The notes under the pieces were generated by a model that was given only the letters and a program-made list of their open reading frames with translations, did not search any database and was not told where the DNA came from. From positions 1 to 61,444 of the forward strand of contig CAYVXV010000005.1 of NCBI GenBank assembly GCA_964455555.1: 61,444 nucleotides of DNA, read 5' to 3'. A program made the position numbers and the translations under genes. This DNA is from an uncultured Pseudomonadales bacterium (lineage in GTDB: Bacteria > Patescibacteriota > Microgenomatia > UBA1400 > PJMF01). Positions 1,383-19,483 of the stretch are shown here, piece by piece (within the stretch, counting starts at the first letter, position 1; the number at the start of each line of letters is the position of its first letter).

Positions 1383-1470
1383 GTTCCAACATCATCCCAT
1401 GACGCCCGCAACAATCGAAAAGTTATGGTAGACCCGTCTAATATTCTCAAATGGGTTGATGGTGTCTGCT
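1383..1470 (+). repeat. Degenerate tRNA-Ser 3-prime-end plus downstream-flank repeat (copy 1)
   Basis: GTTCCAACATCATCCCA...CCGCAACAATCGAAAAGTT..TAGACCCGTC..AATGGGTTGATGG..CTGCT aligns with the reverse complements of 12910-12993 and 16293-16375. Its first 18 nt match 19451-19468. Confidence 0.7.
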
Positions 1471-1575
1471 AATTTTTCCACAAAACTCATGAGTGTCGCA
1501 AAAGAGGCCTGTAATGCTCAAAAGCTCGTAAAAACGCTCAGAAGGAAAGGTAGTTGGTTCTAATCTTTGCTGATA

Positions 1576-2253
1576 TTAATCTTCTATTTTTTCAATCGAA
1601 TGGACATCGAGGACAGCCCAGTTACCAATGGTGTGGCATTTACCAGCCACGCACTGCTCATCTGAGTATGCAAAATTACCATCAACCTGAACCGATTTGC
1701 CAAGTAAGGGTTCAAGTGGGATATCACTTTTTCCGATCATTGTTTCAATATCTCTATCTACCTCAATTCGGCACTCTGTTTTTCCACCCTCTCGACTGCA
1801 AACTTGATGAGCATTCATGTCTCCAGTTGACTCATATTTGAGTAGATAATTTTCTCCACGCTGAACGACTGTATATGTAGCCTCTGGATCATTAAAAGGG
1901 AAAAACTGTGGAGGCTTCTCATGAGTAAGTGACCACACAATATTCCCCAATAATCCAATGGCTACTATGGTAATAACACCTGCAATTCCAAAAAGAGTTT
2001 TCATGCGAATGGTAGATTTTGCTTTCTTCTGACCCGATAGCTTAGTGAGTATTATCAGTGCTGTGACAACTATGCTGATACAACCTAAAAGCAAAACCAT
2101 AAGTGGATATATCCACAACGGTTGAAAACTCAATAACCCAAAATTTATTTTGATTATGAGGAAGAAGCCAAAAATCAACACACTTGCTACAAGACCAGCT
2201 AAGAGGAATAGCCACAGAAACAACTTTCTGACCTGATTTTTCGACATCACCAT
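1576..2253 (-). CDS. Hypothetical membrane protein (about 3 N-terminal TM helices, Cys-containing C-terminal domain)
   Basis: Long ORF with hydrophobic N-terminal segments. The start was trimmed to the internal Met (MVMSKNQ). No recognisable catalytic motif. Confidence 0.55.
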   Translation of the reverse strand: MVMSKNQVRKLFLWLFLLAGLVASVLIFGFFLIIKINFGLLSFQPLWIYPLMVLLLGCISIVVTALIILTKLSGQKKAKSTIRMKTLFGIAGVITIVAIGLLGNIVWSLTHEKPPQFFPFNDPEATYTVVQRGENYLLKYESTGDMNAHQVCSREGGKTECRIEVDRDIETMIGKSDIPLEPLLGKSVQVDGNFAYSDEQCVAGKCHTIGNWAVLDVHSIEKIED

Positions 2254-2269
2254 GTTTCTATTGTAGCAA

Positions 2270-2566
2270 TTAAGCAATAAGCTGTAACTGTCGATCTGTC
2301 AGCATAAACTTTGATTTGACTCCACCCAATATTTTTAACCTCTCTTCAGGAGTTCCATATTGCAGTACGTGGAGTAAATATTCTTTGATTATTTCTGTTT
2401 GTGAGCTTGATACTTCGTCAATATTTTTTGCTCCAGTATTGTGTTGAGTCAGTTCAAACCTCGGTGTAAATTTATCAATCACAGTGGCTTTTAAGTGTTG
2501 CAGTCGTTTGACTTCGGTTTCAAATTCTGACATCAGATACTTCGTATTAAGTTTCATTTCTGGCAA
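2270..2566 (-). CDS. Hypothetical 98-aa protein
   Basis: ORF directly upstream of, and co-oriented with, the membrane protein gene. No recognisable motif. Confidence 0.45.
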   Translation of the reverse strand: MPEMKLNTKYLMSEFETEVKRLQHLKATVIDKFTPRFELTQHNTGAKNIDEVSSSQTEIIKEYLLHVLQYGTPEERLKILGGVKSKFMLTDRQLQLIA

Positions 2567-2704
2567 ATGTCCAATGAGCTGGTAATGAGTTCCTGCTTAG
2601 TAATGTATGGTTCTTTGCAGTCATATTATTGCTCTATCAAGGTCACTGATAACATTGTCCTAAACAAAACAAGACACTTCCTTTTTATAGTGTCTCATTT
2701 GTCC

Positions 2705-2789
2705 CGTTTTTGCTAAAATTACCCTGGAAGCCTAATTCTGGAATGGGACAGTTATAACGACGCACGGGTTCCAGACCCGGGTGCTCCGC
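2705..2789 (+). ncRNA. Candidate small structured RNA / tRNA- or tmRNA-like element, copy 2
   Basis: Direct repeat of 56-140 (5 mismatches, all in the first 30 nt). A -10-like TAAAAT box sits in the same position. It lies 58 nt upstream of the HAD gene start. Confidence 0.4.
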
Positions 2790-2847
2790 ATCCTATGAAT
2801 CACGCAATAGCAATGACCACACCTAACTAATAATACGCGTAACAAAA

Positions 2848-3459
2848 ATGAAAAAAATAAAATTTTTATATTTTGATCTGGGCGGCGTGGTTATTGATCA
2901 TGTTTTTGGGCTGACAAAAACCGCCAAGATACTAGATTTGGATTCAAAGGAAGTAATCACTTTTTTCCAAACACATGCTGATGATTTGGATAGAGGCACA
3001 CTTTCAGTCGCTGAACTTGAGGATATTTTTGAAAGCAAGTTTGGTATTAAAGAAAAAACTGATGAAAAAATAGGTGAAATAATTGTTGATAATTTTAGAG
3101 CTATCCGAGAAACTCATGATTTCATTAACCAAATAGCTAATGATTTTAAGATTGGGATATTATCAAATATTTCAGTAGATGTTTTCAATCTTATAAAAAA
3201 TAAAGAGCTCATTCCAGACATTAATTATGATTCTATTGTGCTTTCAGCAGAATTGGGGCGAATAAAACCAGAGAAAGAAATATTTGATTTTGCTTTATCA
3301 AAAACTCAATTTCATCCAGCCGAAATTTTATTCATTGATGATAGAAACGATAATATTGAAGCTGCAAAATCATTTGACTGGAATGGAATCTTGTTTGATA
3401 CCAAAGATCCTAAAAAATCTATTGAGCTAATACAAAAAAGAATTTTGCTGGGAAATTAG
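2848..3459 (+). CDS. HAD-superfamily hydrolase (subfamily IA-like phosphatase)
   Basis: N-terminal YFDLGGVVID (HAD motif I variant), a later ILSN motif and FIDD near the C-terminus. AT-rich. Confidence 0.65.
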   Translation: MKKIKFLYFDLGGVVIDHVFGLTKTAKILDLDSKEVITFFQTHADDLDRGTLSVAELEDIFESKFGIKEKTDEKIGEIIVDNFRAIRETHDFINQIANDFKIGILSNISVDVFNLIKNKELIPDINYDSIVLSAELGRIKPEKEIFDFALSKTQFHPAEILFIDDRNDNIEAAKSFDWNGILFDTKDPKKSIELIQKRILLGN

Positions 3460-3596
3460 GAGTTTTTTATCTACTCCCTGAGGGGGTGAAATACCAAACG
3501 TGGCAGTGCATGTTTGTGCTTTGCATAGGTGTAATTGTACTACTTTTTTTTACAAATTTTTTCAAAGTGTTCTCGTAAAGAAACCTGCCTCAGCCC

Positions 3597-3848
3597 TTAC
3601 AGCACTTCAACGTCTGAAAAATTTTCAGGCAGGCTGGCGCCAGCTTGGTCTAGCCAATCCGCATCGCATTCATAATCTTCAAACTCTATGACGCCCAATT
3701 CCGCCAACAAAAAAAGGACAAGATTTGCACTGAGCCTGTGGTTTTCCCTCTTCATGACCCCATCAATGTAGATGCCTTCCCAGTCTCCCTCTGTAGAGCT
3801 GACTATTGCTACTTTTGGTTTGGTTGAAGAAGTTTCCGCTTGATTCAT
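3597..3848 (-). CDS. Hypothetical 83-aa acidic protein
   Basis: ORF only, with no motif. It is preferred over the overlapping + strand ORF 3500-3691, which has Cys/Phe-rich junk-like composition. Confidence 0.4.
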   Translation of the reverse strand: MNQAETSSTKPKVAIVSSTEGDWEGIYIDGVMKRENHRLSANLVLFLLAELGVIEFEDYECDADWLDQAGASLPENFSDVEVL

Positions 3849-3968
3849 GAAAGCAGTTTACCATGATTAAAATTTATTATAAATACCATAATCAGCATCA
3901 GAATACCTACTAAAAACACTGAAAACTCAACCAAAACTGGCATTTTCATTTTTCTGGTATAGAATTAG

Positions 3969-5000
3969 GTGGCTATGATGACCCTGCTCAGAAAGGATTG
4001 GCGCAAGCCGCTAAAAATTGCTGCCGGCGCCCTTACCATTTCCTTCACTCTCTTAGCTATCATAATAGTTGCTTCGACTGCTTGGAGGTCTTTTTCGAAT
4101 CAAAGCCCTCAGGAATTGGTCACCCCGCTCACTCAGCAGCTTTCTATCCTAGCACCTCCGCCCCTTGAACCGGAGCCGGTGACCTTAATGTTTGTCGGCG
4201 ACATGATGTTTGACCGCAATATCCGCAGCAAAGCAGAACAAGCCGGCAATTATAATTTCATCTTGGAACCGATGGCACCGCTTTTTAGCCAAGCTGACCT
4301 AATAATCGGCAACCTTGAAGGTCCGATTACCAACAACCCCTCCAGAAGCCAAGGGAGTATACCCGGCTCTACAGACAATTATTATTTCACTTTCAGCCCC
4401 GACATTTTAAGCCTGCTCAAAAACTATCCTTTTGCCCTCAATCTGGGCAACAATCACATTACAAATTTTGGGGCTGACGGTATTTTCCAAACCAAACAAT
4501 TCTTAGCCCAAGCAGAAATTCCATATTTCGGACAAATTGGCAAAGATCATCAGTCAGAAAGCGTGGTTTTAACTGTCCGCAAGATGAAGCTTGCTCTAAT
4601 CAACTATAACGAATTTATTCCAGGAGGGATGCAAAAGACTCTCTCCGCCATAGAAACTCTCAAGCCTCAGGCAGACCTGGTGATTGTCTATCCACACTGG
4701 GGCGCCGAGTATGTTCCCACCGCCAACAGCGTGATCACTTCTCAGGCTCATGCTTTTGTGGACGCAGGCGCCAACATGGTCATTGGTTCACATCCACACG
4801 TGATTCAAAACTCAGAAATTTATCAGGGAGTGCCGATTTACTACAGTTTAGGCAATTTTGTGTTTGACCAATATTTTAGGCCGGAAGTGATGGAGGGCAT
4901 GGTGGTCACAGCGGTGATTGACCCCGTCACTCTTAAAATCAATATTGCCGAGCAACTAGTAACCTTGGACAAGTCCGGAGCCACCTTCCCCACGCCTTGA
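3969..5000 (+). CDS. CapA/PgsA-family metallophosphatase-like protein (poly-gamma-glutamate capsule synthesis family)
   Basis: N-terminal TM segment followed by FVGDMMFDR, GNLEGPIT, NLGNNH, HWGAEY and GSHPHV, the CapA/calcineurin-like signature order. The start may be the ATG at 3975. Confidence 0.7.
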   Translation: MAMMTLLRKDWRKPLKIAAGALTISFTLLAIIIVASTAWRSFSNQSPQELVTPLTQQLSILAPPPLEPEPVTLMFVGDMMFDRNIRSKAEQAGNYNFILEPMAPLFSQADLIIGNLEGPITNNPSRSQGSIPGSTDNYYFTFSPDILSLLKNYPFALNLGNNHITNFGADGIFQTKQFLAQAEIPYFGQIGKDHQSESVVLTVRKMKLALINYNEFIPGGMQKTLSAIETLKPQADLVIVYPHWGAEYVPTANSVITSQAHAFVDAGANMVIGSHPHVIQNSEIYQGVPIYYSLGNFVFDQYFRPEVMEGMVVTAVIDPVTLKINIAEQLVTLDKSGATFPTP

Positions 5001-5037
5001 AACAACTTCTCCTATGCTACAATAACAGCCACCGTTT

Positions 5038-5109
5038 GCCTCTGTAGTTAAACGGATAGAACACAGGTTTCCGGAACCTGCGATGTGGGTTCGATTCCCG
5101 CCAGAGGCA
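5038..5109 (+). tRNA. tRNA-Arg (anticodon CCG)
   Basis: Acceptor GCCTCTG/CAGAGGC, anticodon stem CAGGT/ACCTG with loop TTCCGGA, and T-loop TTCGATT. CCA is not encoded. Confidence 0.85.
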
Positions 5110-5183
5110 CAGTTTTAAGATACGAAATTCTCAATTAGCACTACTCAAAGCGCCGCTCTCTGCTGAAAACAATAAATTGGAAA

Positions 5184-5441
5184 TTACCGGGCCGGCTGGT
5201 GGTAATAAACTGGGGGCTCTATCGGCTTGCCATTATCAGGATTGATTAGTTTGACAAGAATAGCCCCATTTCTCTCCAACCCGACTACCACTGCCTGTAC
5301 ATCCCTAGTAAGCGTCAGGTGATCAGAATCCTCATGAACCCCGTGGTTGAGTTCAGTGCCGACAGCAATCCTAATCCTGTCACCCAACCTGATTGTGGGC
5401 TTTCGGATTGCTTCTTTAAAATAACTAAAAAGTTCTGCCAT
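5184..5441 (-). CDS. Hypothetical 85-aa protein
   Basis: ORF only; no motif recognised. Confidence 0.4.
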   Translation of the reverse strand: MAELFSYFKEAIRKPTIRLGDRIRIAVGTELNHGVHEDSDHLTLTRDVQAVVVGLERNGAILVKLINPDNGKPIEPPVYYHQPAR

Positions 5442-5528
5442 ATCCGAGAATTATATCACAGTCGGTCAATATTTAGACCGATATTTGTTTTTTTTGAGCC
5501 TTACATCTGCTGATATAAGAATACCGAG

Positions 5529-6152: not shown

Positions 6153-6235
6153 GGGTTATGCTATTGATTATGGGTTTAATTTTTCAACTCTGCTCCACAC
6201 CTCAGAACAGCTTTACTAAGCTGTTTTCATAGCTG

Positions 6236-6418
6236 CTAAGCGTACTGCGGATAGTCTTGAACAGTAGCCCTGGCAAATCTCTTCCAGGCCTCAATCCTCG
6301 CCTCTATCCAGCGGTTCAGCTGCGGCTTCTTTGAAGGAAGCTCCGGCTTTGGTTTATCAGAGATAAAGCAATAAAAGCCAACAATTTCCTTCTGGGAATG
6401 GGCATAATATTTATTCAT
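6236..6418 (-). CDS. Hypothetical 60-aa protein
   Basis: Short ORF only. Confidence 0.25.
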   Translation of the reverse strand: MNKYYAHSQKEIVGFYCFISDKPKPELPSKKPQLNRWIEARIEAWKRFARATVQDYPQYA

Positions 6419-6545
6419 ACTGTCGATAATATTAGCCTATAAAAACAAGTATTGTTTAATACTCAAGTAATAAAACGGTAATATAGCCTAGAATATTCAA
6501 AACCTGCCTAGACTAAAGCAAAAAAAGTGCATACAATCGGAAAGT

Positions 6546-7430: not shown

Positions 7431-7458
7431 GTTTTCCGAGCGAGCCACTAACGAACCA

Positions 7459-8532: not shown

Positions 8533-8589
8533 AACCAGTGCAGCTATTATACGCTATTGAAAAAGTGGGCTTGGCCGGAAGTAACTCAT

Positions 8590-9117: not shown

Positions 9118-9159
9118 GGTTGCAGTCTATAATCATTTGGGTATATTATCAAAGGGCAT

Positions 9160-10640: not shown

Positions 10641-11153
10641 TTAGCGGCGCATGAGCGTTTCTTTTTCTGTGTCGTAGCATTCGGGGATCATAGAGGCTGG
10701 GAAATTATTGCCGTCAGCTACTGCACAGGTCGGCGCACCGTTGCCATCAAAAACAATAATCATTTCCTCATTTTGCTTAACTGCGTAAAAGAGGCCACCG
10801 CCCGGGCTGTCCGAGAACCCTATCGATCCGGCAAAATGCGGACCAGATTGCTGCATAATCCTAGCTGTAATAGTGGAAGGATCCCAATTGTTTTTCTTGG
10901 CCAATGCTTGGACGATTAATTGCTCATTGACTGCCTGCGACTCCGCTGCGCTGGTTGGGGAAGCCTCCGGAAAAACAGGATTGCCGTTGCTGTCAAACAG
11001 CTCACCCAAACCGGTAGTTCCATCCTGCTGATCAATTGTTTGACTCTGATCAGGCTGGGGTACCTCAGGAACCTCAGTATGCGTACAGGCTGCCACTAGT
11101 ATAGAAGCGGCTAGGACGAAGAATGTTGCTTTGAAAATTTTAGGCAGATTCAT
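10641..11153 (-). CDS. Secreted lipoprotein, unknown function
   Basis: Signal peptide with a LVAAC lipobox. Confidence 0.5.
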   Translation of the reverse strand: MNLPKIFKATFFVLAASILVAACTHTEVPEVPQPDQSQTIDQQDGTTGLGELFDSNGNPVFPEASPTSAAESQAVNEQLIVQALAKKNNWDPSTITARIMQQSGPHFAGSIGFSDSPGGGLFYAVKQNEEMIIVFDGNGAPTCAVADGNNFPASMIPECYDTEKETLMRR

Positions 11154-11177
11154 AATTTTATTGTACTACAACGATTA

Positions 11178-11861
11178 CTAGAAATTTATTTGACGCTCCC
11201 CATATTTGTCAAACTCATCAATTATAGATTGGCGGATTTTTGGACTGATTTTGGTTAGGCCGTCGATAATAGGCAGCAGATCTATAGCATTGCTCATGGC
11301 CAGATAACGGACGCCAGTCTTGTTGAGGACATCGGCTACATTTAGCCTCTCTTCCGTAACCGCGTTGCGGCTAGTGAGAGCGATGGCTGCCACCACATCT
11401 ATTTTGAGCTCTTGGAGAGTTTTAATGGTTTTAAGCAAGGAACCGCTGGTGGTTGTGACATCCTCAAGCACCACTACTTTGCCTGTAGGTGCTCCTATAA
11501 AGAACCTATCCTGGGGATCGCCGTATTCTTTTGGAGATTTGCGGCCCATGGGTAGGAGGTAGGTTTTCTTGCCATAATCTGGTTGTTGTTTAGCCCACTT
11601 GTATTGAGCTATCACCGCTAGTTTTGTAGCGCCGTCCGGAGTACCATAAAAACAGTCAAAGTTTACCTGATGATGTTGGCAGAAAGCCAGTAAATAATCC
11701 GTCAGCTGGTCAAGCTGGTGAACATCCGATGCAGGTCGGCGCCAATTGACATACCAAGACGAAATTCTGCCTGATGACAATTTAATCGGTTCGTCAAAAA
11801 AACCGACAACCTGGTTGTCGATTACAAATTTGTTGAAACTATCTTGGGTGAATTTTTTCAT
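11178..11861 (-). CDS. Phosphoribosyltransferase (orotate-PRT-like)
   Basis: PRPP-binding loop VVVLEDVTTTSGSL and type I PRTase length. Confidence 0.6.
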   Translation of the reverse strand: MKKFTQDSFNKFVIDNQVVGFFDEPIKLSSGRISSWYVNWRRPASDVHQLDQLTDYLLAFCQHHQVNFDCFYGTPDGATKLAVIAQYKWAKQQPDYGKKTYLLPMGRKSPKEYGDPQDRFFIGAPTGKVVVLEDVTTTSGSLLKTIKTLQELKIDVVAAIALTSRNAVTEERLNVADVLNKTGVRYLAMSNAIDLLPIIDGLTKISPKIRQSIIDEFDKYGERQINF

Positions 11862-11934
11862 AAGGTCTCAAATCATTGCTTATTGCCCAAAAAAACTTCC
11901 CATTAAAAAGCTCCAATTCGACTTTTGTTATGAA

Positions 11935-12222
11935 TTAAATAGTGAATACGTCAGCTTCTCTTACTCTGCTGCTCGTGACCCATCTATCTTCCGGATTGCG
12001 GTCGACTGTGAAGCAACCATGTTCTGTTTTATATACAGGAATCGCCCTTTGCTCAGATCTATCCAGGTAAAAACCTATTAAGCTGGCTTCGATATGGGGT
12101 GGAAATGCACTACTTTGGTACCAATCATCAGAATCAACAATTTCTTTAGCAGCGAAAATTATCTGCTGCTCTCTTTCAGAAAGCTCATTTACGGTTGGTT
12201 TTAGGAGTTGTTCTTGGTGCAT
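11935..12222 (-). CDS. Hypothetical 95-aa protein
   Basis: ORF only. Confidence 0.35.
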   Translation of the reverse strand: MHQEQLLKPTVNELSEREQQIIFAAKEIVDSDDWYQSSAFPPHIEASLIGFYLDRSEQRAIPVYKTEHGCFTVDRNPEDRWVTSSRVREADVFTI

Positions 12223-12279
12223 ATTATTATAATATCACAATAATGCTGACTTCAGATTGCGGAAGGAGTGGTAATGGAG

Positions 12280-12843
12280 CTACCAATCACCTTTCCCTAT
12301 GTATAGAAGCTCCTGATCATCTAGAATCTCATTTAAGAGATTTTTATTCTTAACTGGTGCAACCATCACATCTTTGGCTTTCACTATATGTTGTTCACCA
12401 TTCACATCCAAAAATGCATACCCTTTATTGGCAGGATAAAACCCTATACGACCGTAAAGTTTTTCACCTTTGGGTATGTACGTTTGTAAAAGAGCAAAGT
12501 CTACACTTTCGTTTTCTAAAACTTCCATTGCCTTTTTGAGCAGTTGAGTGGCTATTCCTTTTCCCCGATATTTTTGATCTGTGGCAACACTCCCGATACC
12601 ACCAAGTAGGATGGTCTTATCTTTCCAAATTACTGGACGAATAAAGACTCTCAAATAAGAAATAAGCTCTTTGTCATTTTTGTGAACTATATGAGCGAAT
12701 GGCTGAGAAAAGTAAAGTAACTTTCGATGTTTTTTCAGATTTTTTTCAAAACACTTTTCTTCAAAGGCAAAAAGATCAGCGCGTTGTTGTTCATTTAATT
12801 GATTATCAGGTACTACGGTGATATTTGAAGTCATATGAATCAA
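12280..12843 (-). CDS. GNAT-family N-acetyltransferase
   Basis: Acetyl-CoA binding motif QKYRGKGIATQLL. AT-rich. Confidence 0.7.
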   Translation of the reverse strand: MIHMTSNITVVPDNQLNEQQRADLFAFEEKCFEKNLKKHRKLLYFSQPFAHIVHKNDKELISYLRVFIRPVIWKDKTILLGGIGSVATDQKYRGKGIATQLLKKAMEVLENESVDFALLQTYIPKGEKLYGRIGFYPANKGYAFLDVNGEQHIVKAKDVMVAPVKNKNLLNEILDDQELLYIGKGDW

Positions 12844-12909
12844 TTATAGCTACTTACTTTGATAGTTCCACGGCTGTAGAAATGAAAAATGTTGAAATCA
12901 AGGAAATTT

Positions 12910-12993
12910 AGCAAGCCCCATCAATCCATTCAGTGGTAATGGACGGGTCTATCAGAACTTTTCGATTGTTGCGGAGGTGGTGGGATTCGAACC
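12910..12993 (-). repeat. Truncated tRNA-Ser 3-prime end (T-loop to discriminator) plus about 60-nt downstream flank; putative att-type repeat
   Basis: The minus strand reads GGTTCGAATCCCACCACCTCCGCAACAATCGAAAAGTTCTGATAGACCCGTC...TTGATGGGGCTTGCT. This is colinear with the 3-prime end and flank of the intact tRNA-Ser at 16355-16437. There is no 5-prime half, so it is not a functional tRNA. Confidence 0.75.
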
Positions 12994-13077
12994 GCGCAAC
13001 ATTTACCTCAAGTATTTATAGGTCTAAGAGCCATTCTAGCTCATTTTTAGACCTTGCGAAGCATCAAAAGTGAGTCA

Positions 13078-13086
13078 TGATATAAT
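13078..13086 (+). promoter_or_regulatory. Extended -10 promoter (TGaTATAAT)
   Basis: Same TGnTATAAT architecture as at 407-415. An ATG lies 7 nt downstream. Confidence 0.4.
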
Positions 13087-13092
13087 CATTAC

Positions 13093-13218
13093 AATGCAAA
13101 TAAATAACATGCACCACTATGCTTGGTATTACACCCCAACCGGGAGGTGTGTGTTTTTAGTGCAGTAATAAAATAAAAAGCATGAATAAGTCACAACCTC
13201 CCACCTGGGAGGTTTTTT
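13093..13218 (+). ncRNA. Candidate sRNA or pair of mini-ORFs (24 and 12 codons) ending in a strong terminator
   Basis: Two hairpins share CC-ACC-N-GGGAGGU: ACACC..GGUGU at about 13130-13152, and AACCUCCC-ACCU-GGGAGGUU + U6 at 13195-13218. Mini-ORFs are MQINNMHHYAWYYTPTGRCVFLVQ (13094-13168) and MNKSQPPTWEVF (13182-13220). Confidence 0.3.
13195..13218 (+). terminator. Rho-independent terminator
   Basis: Perfect 8-bp stem AACCTCCC/GGGAGGTT with a 4-nt loop, followed by a T-run. Confidence 0.75.
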
Positions 13219-13355
13219 AGTATTTATTCATAGAAAGGGCATCATGCCAGAACAATTACAAAACATTTTATGGATGGGTGAAGAAATGGATTTTAATCTT
13301 CGACCTGAGGATAAAGCACAAGCAAGAACTTCAATCCAAGAGTTCTTGAATTTAG

Positions 13356-14237
13356 TTGCTAACCCAGCGTTATCCCACTGGCTTTATCGAGCCAACAAAT
13401 AATATTCCCAAACTAGAAAAAGAAATTGTATCTTTAAATAACCAACCTACTTTAGTCATTGATTTGACGAGAGGTAAACTTGCGTCATCTTTAACTTCAA
13501 TTGCTCATATTCCCCAATGGAATTCATTTTCAATTGGCAGAGTACGAGAAGCGACAAAAGTTGATTTGCCAACAAGTGGACATATTTTAAGCCATAATAC
13601 TGAAGAAATTAGAGATCAACTCATTGATCTCGATACTTCTCGCATACTGGTATTGGATGATACATCCTTCTCAGGAACAACTTCATTGCTGGTTGAAAGT
13701 TTACTAAAACAAGCATTCCCAGATAGAATAATCCAATTTACTCACGGATTCTTAATCGTGAATACTGGCAAACTAGGTAATCAAGATGGAGCTTTTAGCC
13801 AAATTAATAGAGGTGGTTCTCATGTTATCAGTGGTTTTAAAATGGAAACTCCCAGGGATGATGGATGGCATTTCTTTGACATTGTTGATCAAGATCACAT
13901 AGAAAATCATTTATTAGTTGTTAAAGAAATCTTAGGATTACTCCAACTTCCTAATTTTGAACATCTGATTGCTTCGTTTTTAAGTAACGAAAATGTATTA
14001 CAAGCAATGTTTCCACAACTAATGCCAGCAGATGATTTGCTTGACCAGCAAAAGTCAGGACATTTCCTCGCTCGGACAAATATTAATGGTGGATTCCATG
14101 TAAGAAATCCACAATTACTACCCAATATTATTGGTCAGAATCATTTATTGACACCTTCAAAATGGAAAGCCAGTTCTAATCAAGTGTTTGCACTACTCGT
14201 ACAAATTAATAAATTTTTGCGGAAAGGAAATGTATGA
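13356..14237 (+). CDS. Phosphoribosyltransferase-like protein with a long C-terminal extension; 5-prime end unclear (possible frameshift with ORF 13244-13402)
   Basis: PRPP-loop ILVLDDTSFSGTTS. The only in-frame start is the TTG at 13356, with no SD. The upstream ATG ORF (13244) has an SD-like GAAAGGG and overlaps it in the 0/+1 frames. Confidence 0.55.
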   Translation: MLTQRYPTGFIEPTNNIPKLEKEIVSLNNQPTLVIDLTRGKLASSLTSIAHIPQWNSFSIGRVREATKVDLPTSGHILSHNTEEIRDQLIDLDTSRILVLDDTSFSGTTSLLVESLLKQAFPDRIIQFTHGFLIVNTGKLGNQDGAFSQINRGGSHVISGFKMETPRDDGWHFFDIVDQDHIENHLLVVKEILGLLQLPNFEHLIASFLSNENVLQAMFPQLMPADDLLDQQKSGHFLARTNINGGFHVRNPQLLPNIIGQNHLLTPSKWKASSNQVFALLVQINKFLRKGNV

Positions 14238-14905
14238 AAAAAATTGAAGCCATAATTTTTGATATGGACGGTACTCTGTACTCTTTTGATGAAGGAAATG
14301 AAAGCCAGTTCACATCTTCTAGATTTGGGAAGGAAATTCGAGTAAATTGCATTCTATTCTTCAAAGAACGGTTTAATCTTTCTCTAAAGGATGCTGAAAG
14401 CATGTATCAAGATTTAAGTAGAAGATATAATGGCGAAGTCAGTCTTGCAGTTGAAAAGGAGTTTGGCATAGATCGCAGTGAATACTTTGCTTTTACTTGG
14501 AATCTAGAAGCTGAGGAATTTATTGCTACAAATGAATCACTCTTGCCTACATTCCAAGAATTAACCATTCCCTCTGGAGTGTTAACAGCTGCACCCAGAG
14601 TTTGGGCAGAAAGGGCTCTTGCCTTTTTACAAATCCGTCAACTTTTTGGTGATGCATTGTTTACGGGAGATCCAGATATTCGCAAACCTGATCCAGAGGC
14701 ATTTCTACAATTAGCTCAGTTTTGGAACTTAGAACCAAGTCGAATCTTGTCTATCGGAGATCAAGAACAAACAGATATTTTACCTGCCAAATCACTGGGA
14801 ATGCAAACACTGCGAATTGCTACACAAGCCGAAACTAAGGCTGACTTTATGGCACCAGATATTATTAAAGCCATAGCTTTATTAAAAGAGAAAGGAATTA
14901 TATGA
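14234..14905 (+). CDS. HAD-superfamily phosphatase (nucleotidase-like)
   Basis: Motif I IIFDMDGTLY and motif IV GDQEQTD. Its ATG overlaps the stop of the upstream gene (ATGA). Confidence 0.7.
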   Translation: MKKIEAIIFDMDGTLYSFDEGNESQFTSSRFGKEIRVNCILFFKERFNLSLKDAESMYQDLSRRYNGEVSLAVEKEFGIDRSEYFAFTWNLEAEEFIATNESLLPTFQELTIPSGVLTAAPRVWAERALAFLQIRQLFGDALFTGDPDIRKPDPEAFLQLAQFWNLEPSRILSIGDQEQTDILPAKSLGMQTLRIATQAETKADFMAPDIIKAIALLKEKGII

Positions 14906-15834
14906 ACAATAAACCAAAACTTATCATCGACACTGATCCAGGACACGATGATGCTCTTGCAATATTAATGACACTCTTGTCAGATCAATTTGACGTATTA
15001 GCAATCACCACAGTGGCTGGTAATGCGACAATTAAAAAAGTAACAAGAAATGCACAGGCGATTCTTGATTTGATTGGCTCTCATGCTCCAGTTTTTTCTG
15101 GTATAGACAAGCCTTTGAAGCGAAAACTTGTTACTGCCGTAGTGCATGGTGAATCTGGGTTGGCGGGGTTTGATACTACTAACACTGACTACAAAGTAAC
15201 AAAAAATGCACCTGAGAAAATAGTTGAGTTAGTTAAAGCCAATCCAGGAGAAGTGACAATTTTAGCACTTGGACCACTGAGTAATATAGCTCGGGCCATA
15301 CAACTAGATTCACAGTTTTCAAGCAAAGTAAAACAACTTGTAATCATGGGTGGTGCGATAGACGTTCCTGGCAATAAAAATAGAGTGGCTGAGTTTAACT
15401 TCTTTGTAGATCCTGAGGCAGCTAACCTTGTCTTTAAATCCAAAATTCCAAAAGTTTTGGTACCTCTTGATGCCTGCAATGAAATAGTGCTTCAGGTTGA
15501 GGATTTTCAAAAGGTGGAAAACGATAATCTCAAATCAATTCTGATTCCCATGATGGAACACTTTATTGCTGGACTCACTTCTGACGAAGGCACGACAGGA
15601 ATTCTCGTTTACGATGCTCTTGCCGCTTACTACCTTCTTAATCCAAATGCGTTCACTCTGAAATCGATGAATGTGGTGATTGAAACTCAAGGACAACATA
15701 CCTTTGGCATGAGTGTGGCAGAAAAGCGGCCACATAAAGTTGAAAATACAAATGTTGAAGTTGTGGTAGGAATTGACGACCAGCAATTTCGTCGAGACTT
15801 TTTTAAAACATTAAGTACTGGGGAGCAAAAATGA
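14902..15834 (+). CDS. Nucleoside hydrolase (inosine-uridine preferring, IUNH family)
   Basis: N-terminal fingerprint LIIDTDPGHDDALAI and typical length. Start overlaps the upstream stop (ATGA). Confidence 0.85.
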   Translation: MNNKPKLIIDTDPGHDDALAILMTLLSDQFDVLAITTVAGNATIKKVTRNAQAILDLIGSHAPVFSGIDKPLKRKLVTAVVHGESGLAGFDTTNTDYKVTKNAPEKIVELVKANPGEVTILALGPLSNIARAIQLDSQFSSKVKQLVIMGGAIDVPGNKNRVAEFNFFVDPEAANLVFKSKIPKVLVPLDACNEIVLQVEDFQKVENDNLKSILIPMMEHFIAGLTSDEGTTGILVYDALAAYYLLNPNAFTLKSMNVVIETQGQHTFGMSVAEKRPHKVENTNVEVVVGIDDQQFRRDFFKTLSTGEQK

Positions 15835-16232
15835 AAGTTCTGTTTGTGTGCCAAGCCAATGTGGGAAGAAGTCAAATGGCTGAAGCGTTTTATAACTTTC
15901 ATACACAGAGTAATGATGCTATCAGTGCTGGAGTAGAAGATTTTCGAGAAAAGTATCAACACAAGCCAACTCGAGAAATAATTGAAGCCATGCTAGAAAA
16001 AGGAATTGACATTTCTCATCAACGAATTGATTTTTTAACACCAGGGATGCTCACAAACGCTGACCAGGTAGTTGTGCTTTGCTCAAAAGACTTGTGTCCT
16101 GAATTCTTACTTGAAAACGGAAAAGTTGTTTTTAGAGAAATTGAGGATCCACATCAACAAGATTTGAAAACTATTCAGCGAATTAGAGATCAGATTGGAG
16201 GGTTAGTTCTTGAGTTGGTAAAAAATATCTGA
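15831..16232 (+). CDS. Low-molecular-weight phosphatase / ArsC-type reductase family protein
   Basis: P-loop VLFVCQANVGRSQMAEA (CX5R-S) plus a second Cys pair LCSKDLCP. Start overlaps the upstream stop (ATGA). Confidence 0.7.
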   Translation: MKVLFVCQANVGRSQMAEAFYNFHTQSNDAISAGVEDFREKYQHKPTREIIEAMLEKGIDISHQRIDFLTPGMLTNADQVVVLCSKDLCPEFLLENGKVVFREIEDPHQQDLKTIQRIRDQIGGLVLELVKNI

Positions 16233-16354
16233 AATATCGATAAATAACTTACTAAGCTGTAAAGCTGAAATATGTTTAAAACGAGGTTTTTAAGCAAGAT
16301 CCATCAACCCATTCGAGAGTATTAGACGGGTCTATCAGAACTTTTCAACTGTTG

Positions 16355-16437
16355 CGGAAGGAGTGGGATTCGAACCCACGAAGCCGTGAGGCTCTGGTTT
16401 TCAAGACCAGTGCAATTGACCGCTCTGCCATCCTTCC
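16355..16437 (-). tRNA. tRNA-Ser (anticodon UGA)
   Basis: Minus strand reads GGAAGGA...TCCTTCC-G. Anticodon loop CTTGAAA, long variable arm, T-loop TTCGAAT. Confidence 0.9.
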
Positions 16438-16511
16438 TAACCTGAGTTTGTATTGTATCATCTACAACTATGTTTTTCAGGTTTGCATGAGCTAATTTTC
16501 CCCATGGTCAA

Positions 16512-17585
16512 TTGCAGAATACCCAAGGTATCGTGTACACTGAAGGTATGTTCGACCCTGCCCGCGACAACCAGCAGCCAGAATCCACTCCGCCATCCAA
16601 TCCTACGGTTGCGTTTAAGCAGTCCATGCAGGGCAGCAACCCCTCACCCGCTCCAAATCAGGATCATGAAACTCCTGTTTTTATCAACCGATCCGGCACT
16701 TTTGTACCAGGAGCTCCGCCTCCACCTGCTCAGGAACCAGAGGCAGCCGGTTTAACTCAAGCAAAAAATCAAGCAACACCGCAGACTGCTTACACTGCCC
16801 CTCCTCCTCCCAGCGATGTTCCGCCCAAGCCTGAAACGGCTCCTTTTACTCCACAGACTGAGCCTCAACCTGCCGATCCAAATCCAATAGGCCAGCCTGC
16901 CGCACCGGAACAACCAGGTTTTCAGAATCAAAACCAAACAGAGCAACCAAATATAGCAGAGCCAAACCTTGAGCAGCCAGATCAGAAACAATCCAACTCA
17001 AGCCAACAAAACCCATCCCGCTTCGACAATGTACCTCCGGATGAGTACCAAGATGAGTACTATGATAATTATTACCCTCCCTACATGCCGCCGCCACCAA
17101 TTCAAGAAGAGTTGATTTATGAGTGGGAAGCACCAAGCCGGCCTTTCAAACCTCACAAGCGACAGTATTACACTACTGTCGGCACCATTGTGCTATTGAT
17201 CTCACTCATCCTGTTCTTCGCCGGCCAATTCCTGCCTATAGCTGTTGTCATAGCAGTAGCCTTTTTGACATACGTCATGACTAGTATTCCGCCTGGAAAT
17301 GTTACCAATACTACCACCACTTTTGGCATTAGGATCGGCGACCAGCTATATTTTTGGGAGGAATTGGGTAGGTTTTGGTTTAAGAAAAAGTATGATGAGG
17401 AAGTGCTTTATATTGAGGCTTTCCGCTTTCCAAACCGGCTCACTTTGCTGCTGGGCAAGGCAGATAAAGCACTGATCCGCGACATCCTGTCGCTGGCTTT
17501 GCTTGAAGGCGAACCTGCGCCGACTTACTACGAAAGAGCTGCTGACTGGCTTCAAAAAAAGATCCCACTAGACCTTGATGCATAA
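16512..17585 (+). CDS. Pro/Gln-rich low-complexity protein with C-terminal two-TM domain
   Basis: About 190 aa of P/Q/N-rich sequence, then TM helices and a conserved-looking C-terminal domain. The start is uncertain (the ATG at 16548 is possible). Confidence 0.55.
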   Translation: MQNTQGIVYTEGMFDPARDNQQPESTPPSNPTVAFKQSMQGSNPSPAPNQDHETPVFINRSGTFVPGAPPPPAQEPEAAGLTQAKNQATPQTAYTAPPPPSDVPPKPETAPFTPQTEPQPADPNPIGQPAAPEQPGFQNQNQTEQPNIAEPNLEQPDQKQSNSSQQNPSRFDNVPPDEYQDEYYDNYYPPYMPPPPIQEELIYEWEAPSRPFKPHKRQYYTTVGTIVLLISLILFFAGQFLPIAVVIAVAFLTYVMTSIPPGNVTNTTTTFGIRIGDQLYFWEELGRFWFKKKYDEEVLYIEAFRFPNRLTLLLGKADKALIRDILSLALLEGEPAPTYYERAADWLQKKIPLDLDA

Positions 17586-17678
17586 GCCAGCTATCATTCA
17601 CGTCCAGATTTTCCCATTCCCGCTTAAACTGTTCTAATTGCTCCTTTGATTTGATACAATACGGTTCATTCAAGACAA

Positions 17679-17752
17679 GCACCCGTAGCTCAGTTGGATA
17701 GAGCATCTGATTGCGGATCAGAAGGCCGTGCGTTCGAGTCGCGCCGGGTGCA
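17679..17752 (+). tRNA. tRNA-Arg (anticodon GCG)
   Basis: Acceptor GCACCCG/CGGGTGC, D-arm GCTC-AGTTGGATA-GAGC, anticodon loop TTGCGGA, T-loop TTCGAGT. Confidence 0.85.
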
Positions 17753-17763
17753 CTTTCAAAAAC

Positions 17764-18354
17764 ATGCCAGAAACAACCCGCCAAATAATTCTTGCTTCGG
17801 AGTCAAGGCAGCGAAAAGCTATGCTTGATACTCTTCATTTGCCCTACCTGCAAGTGCCCGCTCAAATTGATGAAAGTGCCATTTCTGCTGACTCAGAAGA
17901 AAAGCGTTGCGAACTCATTGCCCGAGCCAAAGCAGAGGCTGTTGCTGAGGAGTATCCGGAGGGTATTATCATAGCCGCAGACACATACTCAGTAGCAGAT
18001 GGCAAGGCCTTCGAAAAACCAGCCAATAAAGAAGAAGCTAAAGCAATGCTTAGAGCTCTGTCCGGAAAAGTTAATACGACCATTACCGGGTTTTGCTTTA
18101 TAGATAGAAATAATTCTATAGATGAATCGATGACTGTTGTAACTCAATATACCTTCCGCGACCTTTCAGACAATGAGATAGATAGGTATGTAGCCCACAA
18201 TCCAGTGACAACCTGGTCGGCAGCTTTTAGCCCAGCATATGATAGCGGCATGGCTCTTATTGAATCTGTAGACGGACCGATAACCAGCTTCACCCATGGT
18301 TTGCCGCTGGAAAAAGTGGTCCACTTTCTCAAAAAATCAGGTGTGGCTGTATAA
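17764..18354 (+). CDS. maf: Maf-like nucleoside-triphosphate pyrophosphatase
   Basis: IILASESRQRKAML...QIDES, typical of Maf/YhdE. The start was trimmed to the ATG at 17764 because the longer ORF would overlap the tRNA. Confidence 0.75.
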   Translation: MPETTRQIILASESRQRKAMLDTLHLPYLQVPAQIDESAISADSEEKRCELIARAKAEAVAEEYPEGIIIAADTYSVADGKAFEKPANKEEAKAMLRALSGKVNTTITGFCFIDRNNSIDESMTVVTQYTFRDLSDNEIDRYVAHNPVTTWSAAFSPAYDSGMALIESVDGPITSFTHGLPLEKVVHFLKKSGVAV

Positions 18355-18399
18355 TAGCTTTCAGAACTGATAGCGAATATCTATTGAACGCGCTAGCTT

Positions 18400-18484
18400 G
18401 GAGGAGTCGCATAGTGGCCAATTGCACCGGTTTCGAAAACCGGACCCTTCATTGGGTTCGTGGGTTCAAATCCCACCTCCTCCG
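18400..18484 (+). tRNA. tRNA-Ser (anticodon CGA)
   Basis: Acceptor GGAGGAG/CTCCTCC-G, anticodon loop TTCGAAA, long variable arm, T-loop TTCAAAT. Confidence 0.9.
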
Positions 18485-18826
18485 CATAGAAAATTATGTT
18501 AAAAAAAATTTACCAAAAAAATTAGAAAAATTAATATTATACTTTTGCCAATACATTTACTCATGATATTTGAGTTATTCATGATTGGATTATTTACATA
18601 CCATTATAAAAATAACAATTTTGAGAGATATAATTGCAAACAAATGCTACTGCAGGATAGGAGCACTCTTCTACAAAATAAAAACAATTTAGCTTGCCAA
18701 ACAATCTGCACACTACCAGCCAATATTAGAGGTCTAATTATGACGATAGTGGCACTTTATCTAATAAATTTTATTGATAGGAAGTACCTTAAATTAAGCA
18801 ATCTATTAAGTAAGCCTAGGTAAAAT

Positions 18827-19450
18827 GTGAGTAATATAGAATCGTATTTTAAAAACCCTTGGAAAGAAGATGGCCGCACTCTTAAGTCGCCTTATATGGC
18901 AGTGTTAAGAGATGCGAGAAAAGCTACAAATAGAAATCAAACAACTGGAAACTTATTGACCTCAAAAAAAACCTTAAACAGGCATGGAAGCTGGATAGGT
19001 AGCTTAGGATATCTAATTCTTATTGACCACGTTGGTTCACACTTTACTTTGATAGACGCAGACATCAGCAGAGGAAGTGTAAATAACTTTATCTATGCAT
19101 TGAAAGTATTTTCAGATCTCTCTGAAAAAGAAAGGCTAGCATTGTATGCTTTGAGAAATTGTTTTGCTCATGATTATGGGCTTACAAATATACCAGACGA
19201 CCGTATGAATACACAAGTTAGAGATTTACTATTTCATCACTTTGTTGTTTATGATTCAGATAATGGTGAGATGATTTCATTTCCAAAAACGAGATGGGAT
19301 GGAAGTGATATTACAAAAAAATCACACATTACAAAAATAAATCTCAGAAAAGTAGGAAATTTTGTTGAAGAAATGCATATATCTCTTAAGGGCTTGGCTG
19401 CAGCCAAAAAGCTGAAAGTGACAGCTGATCTAGAATTAATTCATTACTAA
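18827..19450 (+). CDS. HEPN-motif protein (putative RNase; Abi/toxin-like)
   Basis: 207 aa with LALYALRNCFAHDYGL, that is an Rx4H motif (R110, H115) in a helical context as in HEPN families. Very AT-rich, with a GTG start. It is the sole cargo between tRNA-Ser(CGA) and a degenerate repeat of the tRNA 3-prime end. Confidence 0.55.
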   Translation: MSNIESYFKNPWKEDGRTLKSPYMAVLRDARKATNRNQTTGNLLTSKKTLNRHGSWIGSLGYLILIDHVGSHFTLIDADISRGSVNNFIYALKVFSDLSEKERLALYALRNCFAHDYGLTNIPDDRMNTQVRDLLFHHFVVYDSDNGEMISFPKTRWDGSDITKKSHITKINLRKVGNFVEEMHISLKGLAAAKKLKVTADLELIHY

Positions 19451-19483
19451 GGTTCCAACTTCATCCCACCTTCTCCACAACAA
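19451..19483 (+). repeat. Degenerate direct repeat of the tRNA-Ser 3-prime end
   Basis: GGTTCCAACTTCATCCCACCTTCTCCACAACAA compares with the tRNA 3-prime end GGGTTCAAATCCCACCTCCTCCGCA and with 1383-1415 (GTTCCAACATCATCCCA...CCGCAACAA). Confidence 0.55.

What the first reader, a model, noticed from the sequence alone, without database searches (positions are those of the whole stretch)
1383..19483. Family of degenerate tRNA-Ser 3-prime-end repeats marks several integrase-less micro-islands
The 3-prime end of tRNA-Ser(UGA) plus about 60 nt of its downstream flank (GGTTCGAATCCCAC..CCGCAACAgTtGAAAAGTTCTGATAGACCCGTC..AATGGgTTGATGG..CTTGCT) recurs as a truncated copy at 12910-12993 (same orientation) and at 1383-1470 (opposite orientation). 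A shorter variant (GTTCCAACwTCATCCCA...CCrCAACAA) follows the stop codons of two AT-rich cargo genes, at 1383 and at 19451. The second of these lies 1 kb downstream of tRNA-Ser(CGA). These repeats delimit visibly AT-richer segments: the kinase block, the 13.0-16.3 kb operon and the HEPN islet. This is the geometry of tRNA-targeted integrative elements, but none of the units encodes a recombinase. They may be mobilised in trans or may be old scars. The conservation of 60 nt beyond the tRNA end is unusual for att sites and might indicate a co-transcribed RNA or protein-binding site.
Basis: partly seen in the sequence, partly recalled or inferred. Interest (0 to 1): 0.65.

Follow-up and report, generated by a model that had tools for sequence, protein, structure and literature searches.

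The report
Serine-integrase cassette arrays behind tRNA-Ser
The repeated tRNA-Ser ends are the junctions left by small mobile gene cassettes and decayed prophages that a phage-type serine integrase inserts behind serine-tRNA genes of this ultra-small (Patescibacteria) bacterium; the kind of island is known, but it does not seem to have been described for this group.

Summary
The tRNA-Ser(UGA) 3' end plus flank recurs at 12866-12993 and 1383-1570, and the short variant at 1383 and 19451 (0 matches expected by chance).

The repeat unit is larger than reported, about 200 nt. It has more copies at window 50-141, 2666-2789 and 12251-12275, and three more behind tRNA-Ser(GGA) on contig C11.

The flank is not a tRNA trailer RNA; 56 copies show no conserved fold. 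It belongs to the element. In other metagenomes the 3.4-kb cassette 12971-16358 occurs at 98-99% identity without its chromosomal context, joined to a different tRNA-Ser, and similarity stops at the CTCCGC|A junctions.

In relatives, the same flank lies 0.5-2.9 kb from a convergent ~435-aa large serine recombinase (LSR). These LSRs sit in ~25-kb prophage-like elements or 3.3-kb mini-elements.

This genome has no intact LSR and no extra tyrosine integrase.

The cassettes are therefore non-autonomous derivatives, stacked by serial insertion and movable only in trans. The closest published analogue is the Dehalococcoides ssrA islands. I rate it a new variant of a known kind, of moderate interest.

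The parts
1..55 (.). End of an IS element (contig break); it interrupts the element end that follows
   Evidence: Matches the ends of contigs C2, C3, C7 and C14 at 77-87%. C11:1-113 carries the other IS end with an IS3-type OrfA start.
50..141 (+). attR-type junction: element end ('U-ext' variant) plus a pseudo-tRNA T-arm/acceptor arm (P, cgggttccagacccgggtgctccgc)
   Evidence: 92% identical to window 2699-2789 and 91% to G009 L020. Homologous to the far end of the ~25-kb LSR prophage of G081 (L040:2337-2225).
142..178 (+). B' side: hairpin plus T-run, the native tRNA-Ser terminator displaced by insertions
   Evidence: Sequence and fold. The same arrangement occurs at the G081 attR site.
422..1375 (+). 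Cargo: APH-family phosphotransferase (kinase block)
   Evidence: Pfam PF01636, E 2.4e-23.
1383..1412 (+). P arm, short allele (GTTCCAACATCATCCCATGACGCCCGCA)
   Evidence: Sequence. The same allele precedes the flank in another genome (L076).
1413..1570 (+). P' flank (type A on the left, type B on the right): the left end of an internally deleted LSR element
   Evidence: 82% identical to the flank in front of the intact LSR element of G009 (L015:15454-15587).
1576..2277 (-). Cargo ORF of 233 aa, membrane-like, no Pfam family
2270..2566 (-). Large serine recombinase relic (C-terminal 97 aa; similarity reaches about 2625, then stop codons)
   Evidence: BLASTP 86% identity to residues 338-434 of the G009 LSR, E 7e-60. 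tblastn and translation.
2666..2789 (+). U-ext variant plus P arm: the right end (attR side) of the deleted element, followed by unrelated DNA
   Evidence: 94% identical to G009 L020:9004-8881. 91% identical to the G081 prophage far end.
12251..12275 (-). Terminal P arm remnant (ccattaccactccttccgca) after the GNAT gene: the distal end of the tRNA-Ser(UGA) array
   Evidence: Sequence. The last 14 nt equal the 3' end of tRNA-Ser(UGA).
12280..12843 (-). Cassette 2 cargo: GNAT acetyltransferase
   Evidence: Pfam PF13527/PF00583. In same-genus G003 the homologue (76% aa) sits directly behind tRNA-Ser(GCU).
12866..12969 (-). P' flank of cassette 2
   Evidence: 95% identical to the family consensus; alignment.
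12970..13064 (-). U-ext (promoter-like TTCGCA-16-TAGAAT) plus the P arm of cassette 1; together with the previous part this forms the 'orphan' P|P' junction
   Evidence: Contigs from other metagenomes stop matching at 12971.
13356..16232 (+). Cassette 1 cargo: unknown 293 aa, HAD hydrolase, inosine-uridine nucleoside hydrolase, LMW phosphatase/ArsC-like
   Evidence: Pfam. Present at 98-99% identity in runs X3, X4 and X9 without the flanking chromosome.
16247..16353 (-). P' flank of cassette 1 (attL side), a divergent allele
   Evidence: It travels with the cassette: X4 contig covering 15943-16358 has 3 differences and then runs into a different tRNA-Ser.
16354..16437 (-). tRNA-Ser(UGA), the attachment target (B arm = T-arm plus acceptor 3' strand)
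   Evidence: ARAGORN and Rfam.
18400..18485 (+). tRNA-Ser(CGA), a second attachment target in inverted orientation
18486..19450 (+). AT-rich islet with two ORFs (92 and 207 aa); no Pfam family, so HEPN is not confirmed
19451..19483 (+). P arm, short allele, followed by unrelated DNA (attR-type junction of the islet)

Best explanation
The repeats are recombination junctions of one family of integrative elements. A ~435-aa large serine recombinase (LSR) inserts these elements at the 3' end of tRNA-Ser genes.

Anatomy of an element:
- Left end: P', the conserved ~110-nt 'flank'.
- Cargo.
- In autonomous copies only: a convergent LSR gene plus phage-like genes.
- Right end: 'U-ext' followed by P, a 25-30-nt imitation of the tRNA-Ser T-arm and acceptor strand.

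Insertion and stacking (inferred):
- Crossover lies in or next to the shared CTCCGC at the tRNA's discriminator position.
- Insertion gives tRNA|P'...P|B'.
- Because P imitates the tRNA end, the distal P|B' junction can serve as a new target. Units therefore stack as tRNA|P'-c1-P|P'-c2-P|B'.

State of this genome (shown):
- It holds two cassettes behind tRNA-Ser(UGA).
- It holds an internally deleted element with an LSR stump at 1413-2789.
- It holds an islet behind tRNA-Ser(CGA).
- It holds a three-cassette array ending in a second LSR stump behind tRNA-Ser(GGA) on contig C11.
- It has no intact LSR.

Its cassettes are therefore non-autonomous and can move only when a related element supplies the enzyme.

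Shown: the anatomy, the LSR linkage in relatives, the relics, and that flank and P arm travel with the cargo. Inferred: the exact crossover, the distal-growth order, and present-day mobilisation in trans.
For: (1) Anatomy. The repeat units and half-sites are described.

(2) Target specificity. Of 54 distinct flank copies in species-representative genomes, 26 sit directly behind an intact tRNA-Ser (GCU 10, CGA 5, GGA 4, UGA 4, ACU 3). None sits behind another tRNA. The other 28 follow pseudo-tRNA arms.

(3) LSR linkage.
- 16 of the 54 copies have an LSR of one clade 0.5-2.9 kb downstream, always convergent.
- 11 such loci were found independently by crossing and were mapped.
- My rough estimate of the chance expectation is about 1 of 73.

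(4) Nature of the enzyme and its neighbours. The protein has Resolvase, Recombinase and Zn_ribbon_recom domains. Its neighbours are terminase-like, small-terminase/HTH and ParB_N plus DNA methylase genes.

(5) Element sizes.
- A ~25-kb element in G081 has attL as tRNA-Ser(GCU) plus flank, and attR as U-ext plus P next to a terminator.
- A 3.3-kb mini-element in G092 has an intact LSR.

(6) LSR relics in this genome. They lie at window 2270-2566 (86% identity, E 7e-60) and C11:114-404 (77-86%). Both have the same geometry as intact elements.

(7) Movement as a unit. Runs X3, X4 and X9 (other studies) hold 12971-16358 at 98-99% identity, while 11000-12735 and 16440-17500 have zero depth. Matching stops at 12971 and 16358. 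X4 continues into a different tRNA-Ser T-arm.

(8) Cross-genus identity. Cassettes are 85-90% nt identical across genera and flanks 90-92%. Syntenic core DNA within the genus is only 69% identical.

(9) Patchy distribution. The flank is absent from same-genus G001 and G002 and single in G003.
Against: - No intact LSR exists in this assembly, so current activity here is unproven.
- No clean empty site was recovered for any of this genome's insertions. The one I tried, G019, carries different DNA downstream.
- No free phage or circular form with a joined P|P' site was found in IMG/VR.
- Canonical LSRs recombine only attP x attB, so stacking requires that P|B' (or B|P') is accepted as a target. 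This is inferred, not shown.
- About 50-85 nt of the conserved flank exceed what an LSR half-site needs, and their role is unexplained.
- The two cassettes with the short P allele (APH, and the islet behind tRNA-Ser(CGA)) lack a recognisable flank-type P'.
Confidence: 0.8

Rival explanations
1. Cassette exchange is by homologous recombination. The ~200-nt conserved repeats act only as portable homology, for example after DNA uptake, and the LSR association is a leftover from the prophages that first introduced them.
For: The repeats are long (100-200 nt) and 80-95% identical, which is enough for RecA-type exchange. The GNAT cassette sits at a different tRNA-Ser in G003. Window 1413-1570 looks like a type A/type B flank chimera.
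Against: Similarity of the travelling cassette ends exactly at the outer edge of the flank and of the P arm (16358 and 12971), not inside them. The divergent flank allele of cassette 1 moves with its cargo. Every flank-adjacent tRNA is tRNA-Ser, and the LSR is always in the same convergent position.
Confidence: 0.1
2. The 'orphans' are decaying tRNA-Ser paralogues, and the flank is a functional RNA (a 3' trailer or small RNA) shared by tRNA-Ser genes. The variable genes between them are an ordinary hotspot.
For: The flank follows several tRNA-Ser isoacceptors and is conserved across 31 of 57 genera. U-ext holds a conserved promoter-like TTCGCA-16-TA(C/G)AAT.
Against: There is no conserved fold: RNAalifold gives -0.14 kcal/mol on 56 copies, a single copy has z -1.7, and Rfam has no match. 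The flank is absent from 2 of the 4 tRNA-Ser genes here and from same-genus genomes. It travels with the cargo to another host's tRNA. Flank identity of 90% across genera far exceeds core identity.
Confidence: 0.03
3. A tyrosine recombinase does the work: either the host XerC/D pair (IMEX-like) or a classical tRNA-targeting integrase encoded elsewhere.
For: Direct repeats of a tRNA 3' end are the textbook signature of tyrosine integrases. One relative (G012) has a third tyrosine recombinase next to a tRNA-Ser.
Against: Every genome of the family and order has just the two Xer-like genes. Extra tyrosine integrases are rare and are not linked to the flank. The flank has no dif-like site. LSR linkage is strong and oriented.
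Confidence: 0.03

Closest known systems
Dehalococcoides ssrA-specific genomic islands (DsiB, a CcrB-like serine recombinase; McMurdie et al. 2011, PMC3146451)
   Same: - Tandem islands lie downstream of a small RNA gene and are bounded by copies of its 3' end.
- The crossover is in the T-loop/acceptor region.
- The serine recombinase lies next to attL on the reverse strand.
- A ParB-domain gene is in the module.
- About half of the islands lack the integration module and are read as cis-mobilisable units added by accretion.
   Different: - The target here is tRNA-Ser, with four or five isoacceptor genes per genome used as parallel landing sites.
- There is a single ~435-aa LSR and no DsiA-like partner was seen.
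- Units are much smaller (0.7-3.4 kb) or are ~25-kb prophage-like elements.
- A ~110-nt conserved element-side flank is present.
- The host phylum is Patescibacteria.
Staphylococcal cassette chromosome (SCC/SCCmec) composite islands, including ccr-less pseudo-SCC (from my own knowledge)
   Same: LSR-driven insertion occurs at the 3' end of a conserved gene. Units are stacked and separated by repeated att-type sites, and some units lack a recombinase.
   Different: SCC targets rlmH (orfX), needs a CcrA plus CcrB pair or CcrC, has larger units and is not phage-like.
Temperate-phage large serine integrases (phiC31, Bxb1, TP901-1, A118 types; from my own knowledge)
   Same: They share the domain set Resolvase, Recombinase and zinc ribbon. 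The neighbours are phage-like, and the short att sites have no long identity.
   Different: Identity to any deposited phage integrase is at most 26%. Known LSRs mostly target protein-coding genes rather than tRNA genes. No recombination directionality factor (RDF) was identified here.
Integrons and attC clusters lacking an integrase (CALINs) (from my own knowledge)
   Same: Arrays consist of small, mostly promoter-poor cassettes separated by a recurring site, and the enzyme is often not adjacent.
   Different: There is no IntI tyrosine recombinase. There is no folded attC-like site. The junctions here are double-stranded LSR-type half-sites that imitate a tRNA end.

Membership tests
LSR-mediated integrative elements / prophages | Recombinase with Resolvase catalytic domain, Recombinase domain and zinc ribbon | tested here: met
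   L026:5232-6548 matches PF00239 (1.4e-21), PF07508 (1.8e-16) and PF13408 (3.6e-8). In the window itself only a C-terminal relic survives.
LSR-mediated integrative elements / prophages | Recombinase gene physically linked to the att junctions | tested here: met
   16 of 54 flank copies have the LSR 0.5-2.9 kb downstream, always convergent. 11 loci were mapped.
LSR-mediated integrative elements / prophages | Short att sites with a crossover at a fixed dinucleotide and no long target duplication | tested here: inconclusive
   The B|P', P|P' and P|B' junctions share only CTCCGC. Cassette similarity stops at 12971 and 16358. The cut itself was not mapped.
LSR-mediated integrative elements / prophages | Recombination directionality factor for excision | not tested
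   No candidate was identified. The small ORFs in the elements were not examined.
Classical tyrosine-integrase tRNA islands | Tyrosine integrase gene next to the tRNA-proximal junction | tested here: not met
   PF00589 finds only the two Xer-like genes in G000 (C6:17761-18243 and C1:27-290), as in all 25 genomes searched.
Integrons / CALIN | IntI-type integrase and attC sites that fold into imperfect hairpins | tested here: not met
   There is no extra tyrosine recombinase. The consensus fold of 56 junction flanks is -0.14 kcal/mol.
Cis-mobilisable elements (CIME) / accretion arrays | Recombinase-less units bounded by att sites of a related autonomous element, lying in tandem with it | tested here: met
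   Window and C11 arrays. G116 has the array tRNA-c1-R-c2-R-LSR element. One cassette was seen in another host context. Actual excision was not observed.
Structured non-coding RNA / tRNA trailer | Conserved secondary structure with covariation, or a match to an Rfam family | tested here: not met

The most novel reading that the evidence does not exclude
Woesebacteria/Microgenomates-type Patescibacteria may use their four or five tRNA-Ser genes as parallel landing pads of a selected gene-capture platform: a serine-recombinase analogue of the integron.

In this reading:
- Self-contained 0.7-3.4-kb cassettes (P' flank - cargo - tRNA-mimic P arm) are excised, exchanged between species and re-stacked individually.
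- A phage-borne LSR supplied in trans does the recombination.
- The conserved distal part of the flank (AACAGCCGTGTAAGT, about 15 nt, then a TATAAT-like box) acts as an outward promoter for the cargo.
- The inverted sites also drive chromosomal inversions.
Probability: 0.3. Interest if true: 0.8.

Novelty: new variant of a known kind. Interest (0 to 1): 0.5.

Why it matters
Patescibacteria have ~1-Mb genomes with very little room for accessory genes, and little is known about how they acquire any. Here about 1% of the genome consists of exchangeable cassettes: small-molecule 'housekeeping' enzymes (HAD phosphatases, HIT, nucleoside hydrolase, GNAT, kinase, methyltransferase).

The cassettes are parked behind tRNA-Ser genes. 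They are shared across genera at 85-99% identity, while core genes within the genus are only ~70% identical.

This work identifies the enzyme family (a compact LSR), the target (the tRNA-Ser 3' end) and the element ends. That gives a concrete, testable route of horizontal transfer in this phylum.

It also points to a set of small LSRs with defined natural att sites. Finally, it explains assembly breaks and rearrangements near tRNA-Ser genes in these MAGs.

Tried and rejected
- Rfam scan of 1-22000 at E<=1 found only tRNAs.
- RNA-structure tests of the flank and of the whole orphan unit found no conserved fold.
- Tyrosine-integrase hunt found only the universal Xer-like pair.
- Search for free phage forms found nothing. 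There were no relatives of the LSR and no flank motif in IMG/VR viral contigs. Deposited phages reach at most 26% identity.
- Empty-site hunt: same-genus G001 lacks the flank, but its tRNA-Ser(UGA) downstream is rearranged. G019, of the same genus as G081, has other DNA behind tRNA-Ser(GCU). No clean attB was obtained.
- I considered placing the crossover in the conserved inverted repeat RACCCRTYT-N9-ARAYGGGTY inside the flank. I rejected this because P arms abut unrelated DNA directly (141, 2789, 19483, and G081 attR) and the whole flank moves with the cargo.
- The other cassettes (APH, islet, C11 cassettes) were not found in runs X3, X4 or X9.
- Literature searches found no description of such elements in Patescibacteria within the held library.

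Full report
**Observation.** The window is the whole of contig C5 of a 936-kb, 15-contig genome. The genome is estimated 100% complete. Earlier notes on the genome and the record titles of relatives assign it to Patescibacteria of the Woesebacteria/Microgenomates type.
- ARAGORN finds tRNA-Ser(UGA) at 16354-16437(-) and tRNA-Ser(CGA) at 18400-18485(+).
- The last bases of tRNA-Ser(UGA) and what follows recur at 12866-12993(-) and 1383-1570(+).
- A 33-nt junction motif hits these three places with at most 2 mismatches, where shuffles give none.
- The short variant is at 1383-1412 and 19451-19483.
- The bounded segments have GC 0.30-0.40 against 0.45-0.53 outside.

**Fuller anatomy.** Searching the whole genome adds contig C11.
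- tRNA-Ser(GGA) at C11:4409-4492(-) carries the same flank.
- It is followed by three cassettes separated by two more 'orphan' copies (C11:3425-3625 and 1081-1254).
- Aligned, the orphan unit is about 200 nt. It has four parts in order:
  1. An upstream extension ('U-ext') with a conserved promoter-like TTCGCA-16-TA(C/G)AAT.
  2. A degenerate T-arm plus acceptor strand ('P').
  3. The junction CTCCGC|AACAAT.
  4. A ~110-nt flank ('P''): GAAAAGTTCTGATAGACCCGTC..AATGGGTTGATGGGGCTTGCTAAATTTCC..AACAGCCGTGTAAGT.
A second U-ext/P allele (…cgggttccagacccgggtgctccgc) lies at 50-141 and 2666-2789, each followed by unrelated DNA. A P remnant lies at 12251-12275 after the GNAT gene.

**What it is not.**
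- Rfam finds only tRNAs.
- RNAalifold on 56 distinct flank copies gives -0.14 kcal/mol with no meaningful covariation.
- One whole unit folds no better than shuffles (z -1.7).
- The conservation is therefore at the level of primary sequence.
- Tyrosine recombinases do not explain it. Each of 25 genomes searched, this one included, has the same pair of Xer-like genes, and extra ones are rare.

**The enzyme.** Earlier AI notes from other Patescibacteria windows suggested a serine recombinase, and I tested this here.
- PF00239 is absent from this genome but present in 88 of 121 genomes of the family.
- The flank occurs in 44 of 121 genomes and 31 of 57 genera.
- Crossing the two lists gave 11 places where a flank copy lies 1.4-2.2 kb from a convergent ~435-480-aa serine recombinase gene. 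Mapping the loci confirmed them.
- An exact-motif scan of species-representative genomes gave 54 distinct copies, all in Patescibacteria MAGs:
  - 26 sit directly behind an intact tRNA-Ser of any anticodon, and none behind another tRNA.
  - 28 sit behind pseudo-tRNA arms.
  - 16 have an LSR of the same clade 0.5-2.9 kb downstream, always on the opposite strand.
- The protein has Resolvase, Recombinase and zinc-ribbon domains.
- Its neighbours are terminase-like, small-terminase/HTH and ParB_N-DNA-methylase genes.
- In G081 the element spans ~25 kb. It runs from tRNA-Ser(GCU)+flank to a U-ext+P end that abuts a terminator hairpin.
- In G092 a 3.3-kb mini-element holds only the flank, one cargo gene, an intact LSR and U-ext+P.

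**Relics in this genome.** tblastn with eleven LSRs finds two C-terminal stumps.
- Window 2270-2566(-) is 86% identical to residues 338-434 of the G009 enzyme (E 7e-60), with stop codons upstream.
- C11:114-404(+) is 77-86% identical to residues ~335-435 and is cut by an IS whose OrfA runs off the contig.
- Both lie where intact elements have the gene, convergent on the flank with cargo in between.
- Window 1413-2789 is therefore an internally deleted element: flank, 233-aa ORF, LSR stump, U-ext, P.
- C-terminal-only stumps are common. They make up 8 of the 16 LSR hits next to flanks.

**Junction logic (inferred).**
- tRNA-proximal copies read tRNA…CTCCGC|AACAAT (B|P').
- Orphans read pseudo-tRNA…C(T/C)CCGC|AACAAT (P|P').
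- Terminal copies read pseudo-tRNA…CTCCGC|unrelated (P|B'). At window 141 and at the G081 attR site, B' is a terminator hairpin, as expected for the native tRNA 3' flank.
- The only sequence common to all is CTCCGC, so the crossover lies there or within a base or two.
- GGGT of the T-arm and ACCC of the flank lie about 21-25 nt on either side of it. That gives a ~50-bp site with outer symmetry, the size of an LSR attP. This is a reading of the sequences, not a test.
- Because P imitates the tRNA end, P|B' resembles attB. This would let new units insert distally. It fits the observation that the LSR-bearing, presumably youngest, unit is the distal one in G116, in C11 and in the window.

**Mobility.**
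- Cassettes are far more similar across genera than core DNA is within the genus:

| Comparison | Identity | Length |
|---|---|---|
| C11:1078-2433 vs G116 | 85% nt | 1360 nt |
| C11:2650-3359 vs G068 | 90% nt | 710 nt |
| Flank, G000 vs other genera | 90-92% nt | ~110 nt |
| Syntenic core, window 17103-18485 vs same-genus G001 | 69% nt | 1384 nt |

- The GNAT cassette lies behind tRNA-Ser(GCU) in G003 but in the tRNA-Ser(UGA) array here.
- G001 and G002 lack the flank entirely.
- Most directly, Logan contigs of three metagenomes from other studies (X3, X4, X9; sludge and bioreactors) hold cassette 1 at 98-99% identity:
  - X3 has 2419 nt covering 12971-15382 and 978 nt covering 15369-16346.
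  - X4 has 1969 nt covering 13999-15967 and 441 nt covering 15943-16358.
  - The chromosome on both sides (11000-12735 and 16440-17500) has zero depth in these runs.
  - Matching ends at 12971 and 16358, and X4 continues into the T-arm of a different tRNA-Ser.
- The flank and the P arm thus belong to the cassette, and the 3.39-kb unit moves as a whole. The other cassettes were seen only in the probable source sample.

**Open points.**
- About 50-85 nt of the flank beyond an LSR half-site are conserved without explanation. This stretch includes an inverted repeat RACCCRTYT-N9-ARAYGGGTY. It also includes a distal block followed at a fixed distance by a TATAAT-like box. I read the latter as a possible outward promoter (inference).
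- The two short-allele cassettes lack a flank-type P'.
- No circular form, empty site or RDF was found.
- Whether C11 joins the window start across the IS is plausible but unproven.

**Comparison and verdict.**
- The closest published system is the set of ssrA-specific islands of Dehalococcoides (PMC3146451). They are tandem islands bounded by copies of the small-RNA 3' end. A CcrB-like serine recombinase lies on the reverse strand next to attL, a ParB-domain gene is present, and half of the islands lack the module and are read as cis-mobilisable.
- SCC composite islands are similar in logic.
- This case differs in target (several tRNA-Ser genes per genome), enzyme (a single compact LSR, at most 26% identical to deposited phage integrases), unit size and host phylum.
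- I found no description of it for Patescibacteria in the held literature.
- I rate it a new variant of a known kind, with moderate interest.

Noticed in passing
window 142-421: After the terminator hairpin (142-178), a GC-rich stretch upstream of the APH gene folds much better than shuffles: -102 kcal/mol, z -4.3, with 0 of 200 shuffles as good. It has no Rfam match and no homologue in the fetched loci. It may be a structured leader.
   Followed up: partly
window 16354-18485 versus G001 (L019:9100-13134): The 2.1-kb segment between the inverted tRNA-Ser(UGA) and tRNA-Ser(CGA) genes is flipped relative to its surroundings between G000 and same-genus G001. In G001 the block homologous to window 27210-38674 abuts the UGA gene in reverse. 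This is as expected from recombination between the two inverted tRNA-Ser 3' ends.
   Followed up: partly
window 1-55; C11:1-113; ends of C2, C3, C7, C14: An IS3-like insertion sequence sits at several contig ends and truncates the LSR stump on C11. C11's start (IS left end) and the window's start (IS right end followed by U-ext-P) could be the two sides of one insertion.
   Followed up: partly
L015:15347-15434, L014:160-247, L018:7797-7882 and three more loci: Several genera carry a complete tRNA-Ser gene with anticodon ACU, in addition to GCU. An A34 tRNA is unusual in bacteria. It is also used as an insertion target.
   Followed up: no
L100 (C11) 4431 joined to 1218, run X1: A contig of the probable source sample (depth 9, like the genome) joins a U-ext like that of C11:1218-1253, through 11 nt (AATTGTACTGC on the tRNA strand), to a P arm plus the tRNA-GGA-type flank. 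This P|P' junction is not in the assembly. It could lie in an assembly gap, come from a co-occurring strain, or be a circle junction.
   Followed up: partly
flank copies (for example L056, L057, L059, L060, L061, L081, L090, L092): Half of the LSR genes next to flanks are C-terminal stumps only (residues ~240-400 onward). The two in this genome fit the same pattern, which points to a recurrent deletion from the U-ext side.
   Followed up: no
window 32060-32475: ARAGORN reports a tmRNA with an unusually long predicted tag (ANEKIAGAKSMLLETLGFGSSEAPAFAPAMVA). This was not examined.
   Followed up: no
window 2848-3459: An AT-rich (GC 0.30-0.34) HAD-hydrolase gene lies just beyond the last P arm (2789). 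No further att-like end was found up to 3990, so it may be an older, eroded cassette.
   Followed up: partly
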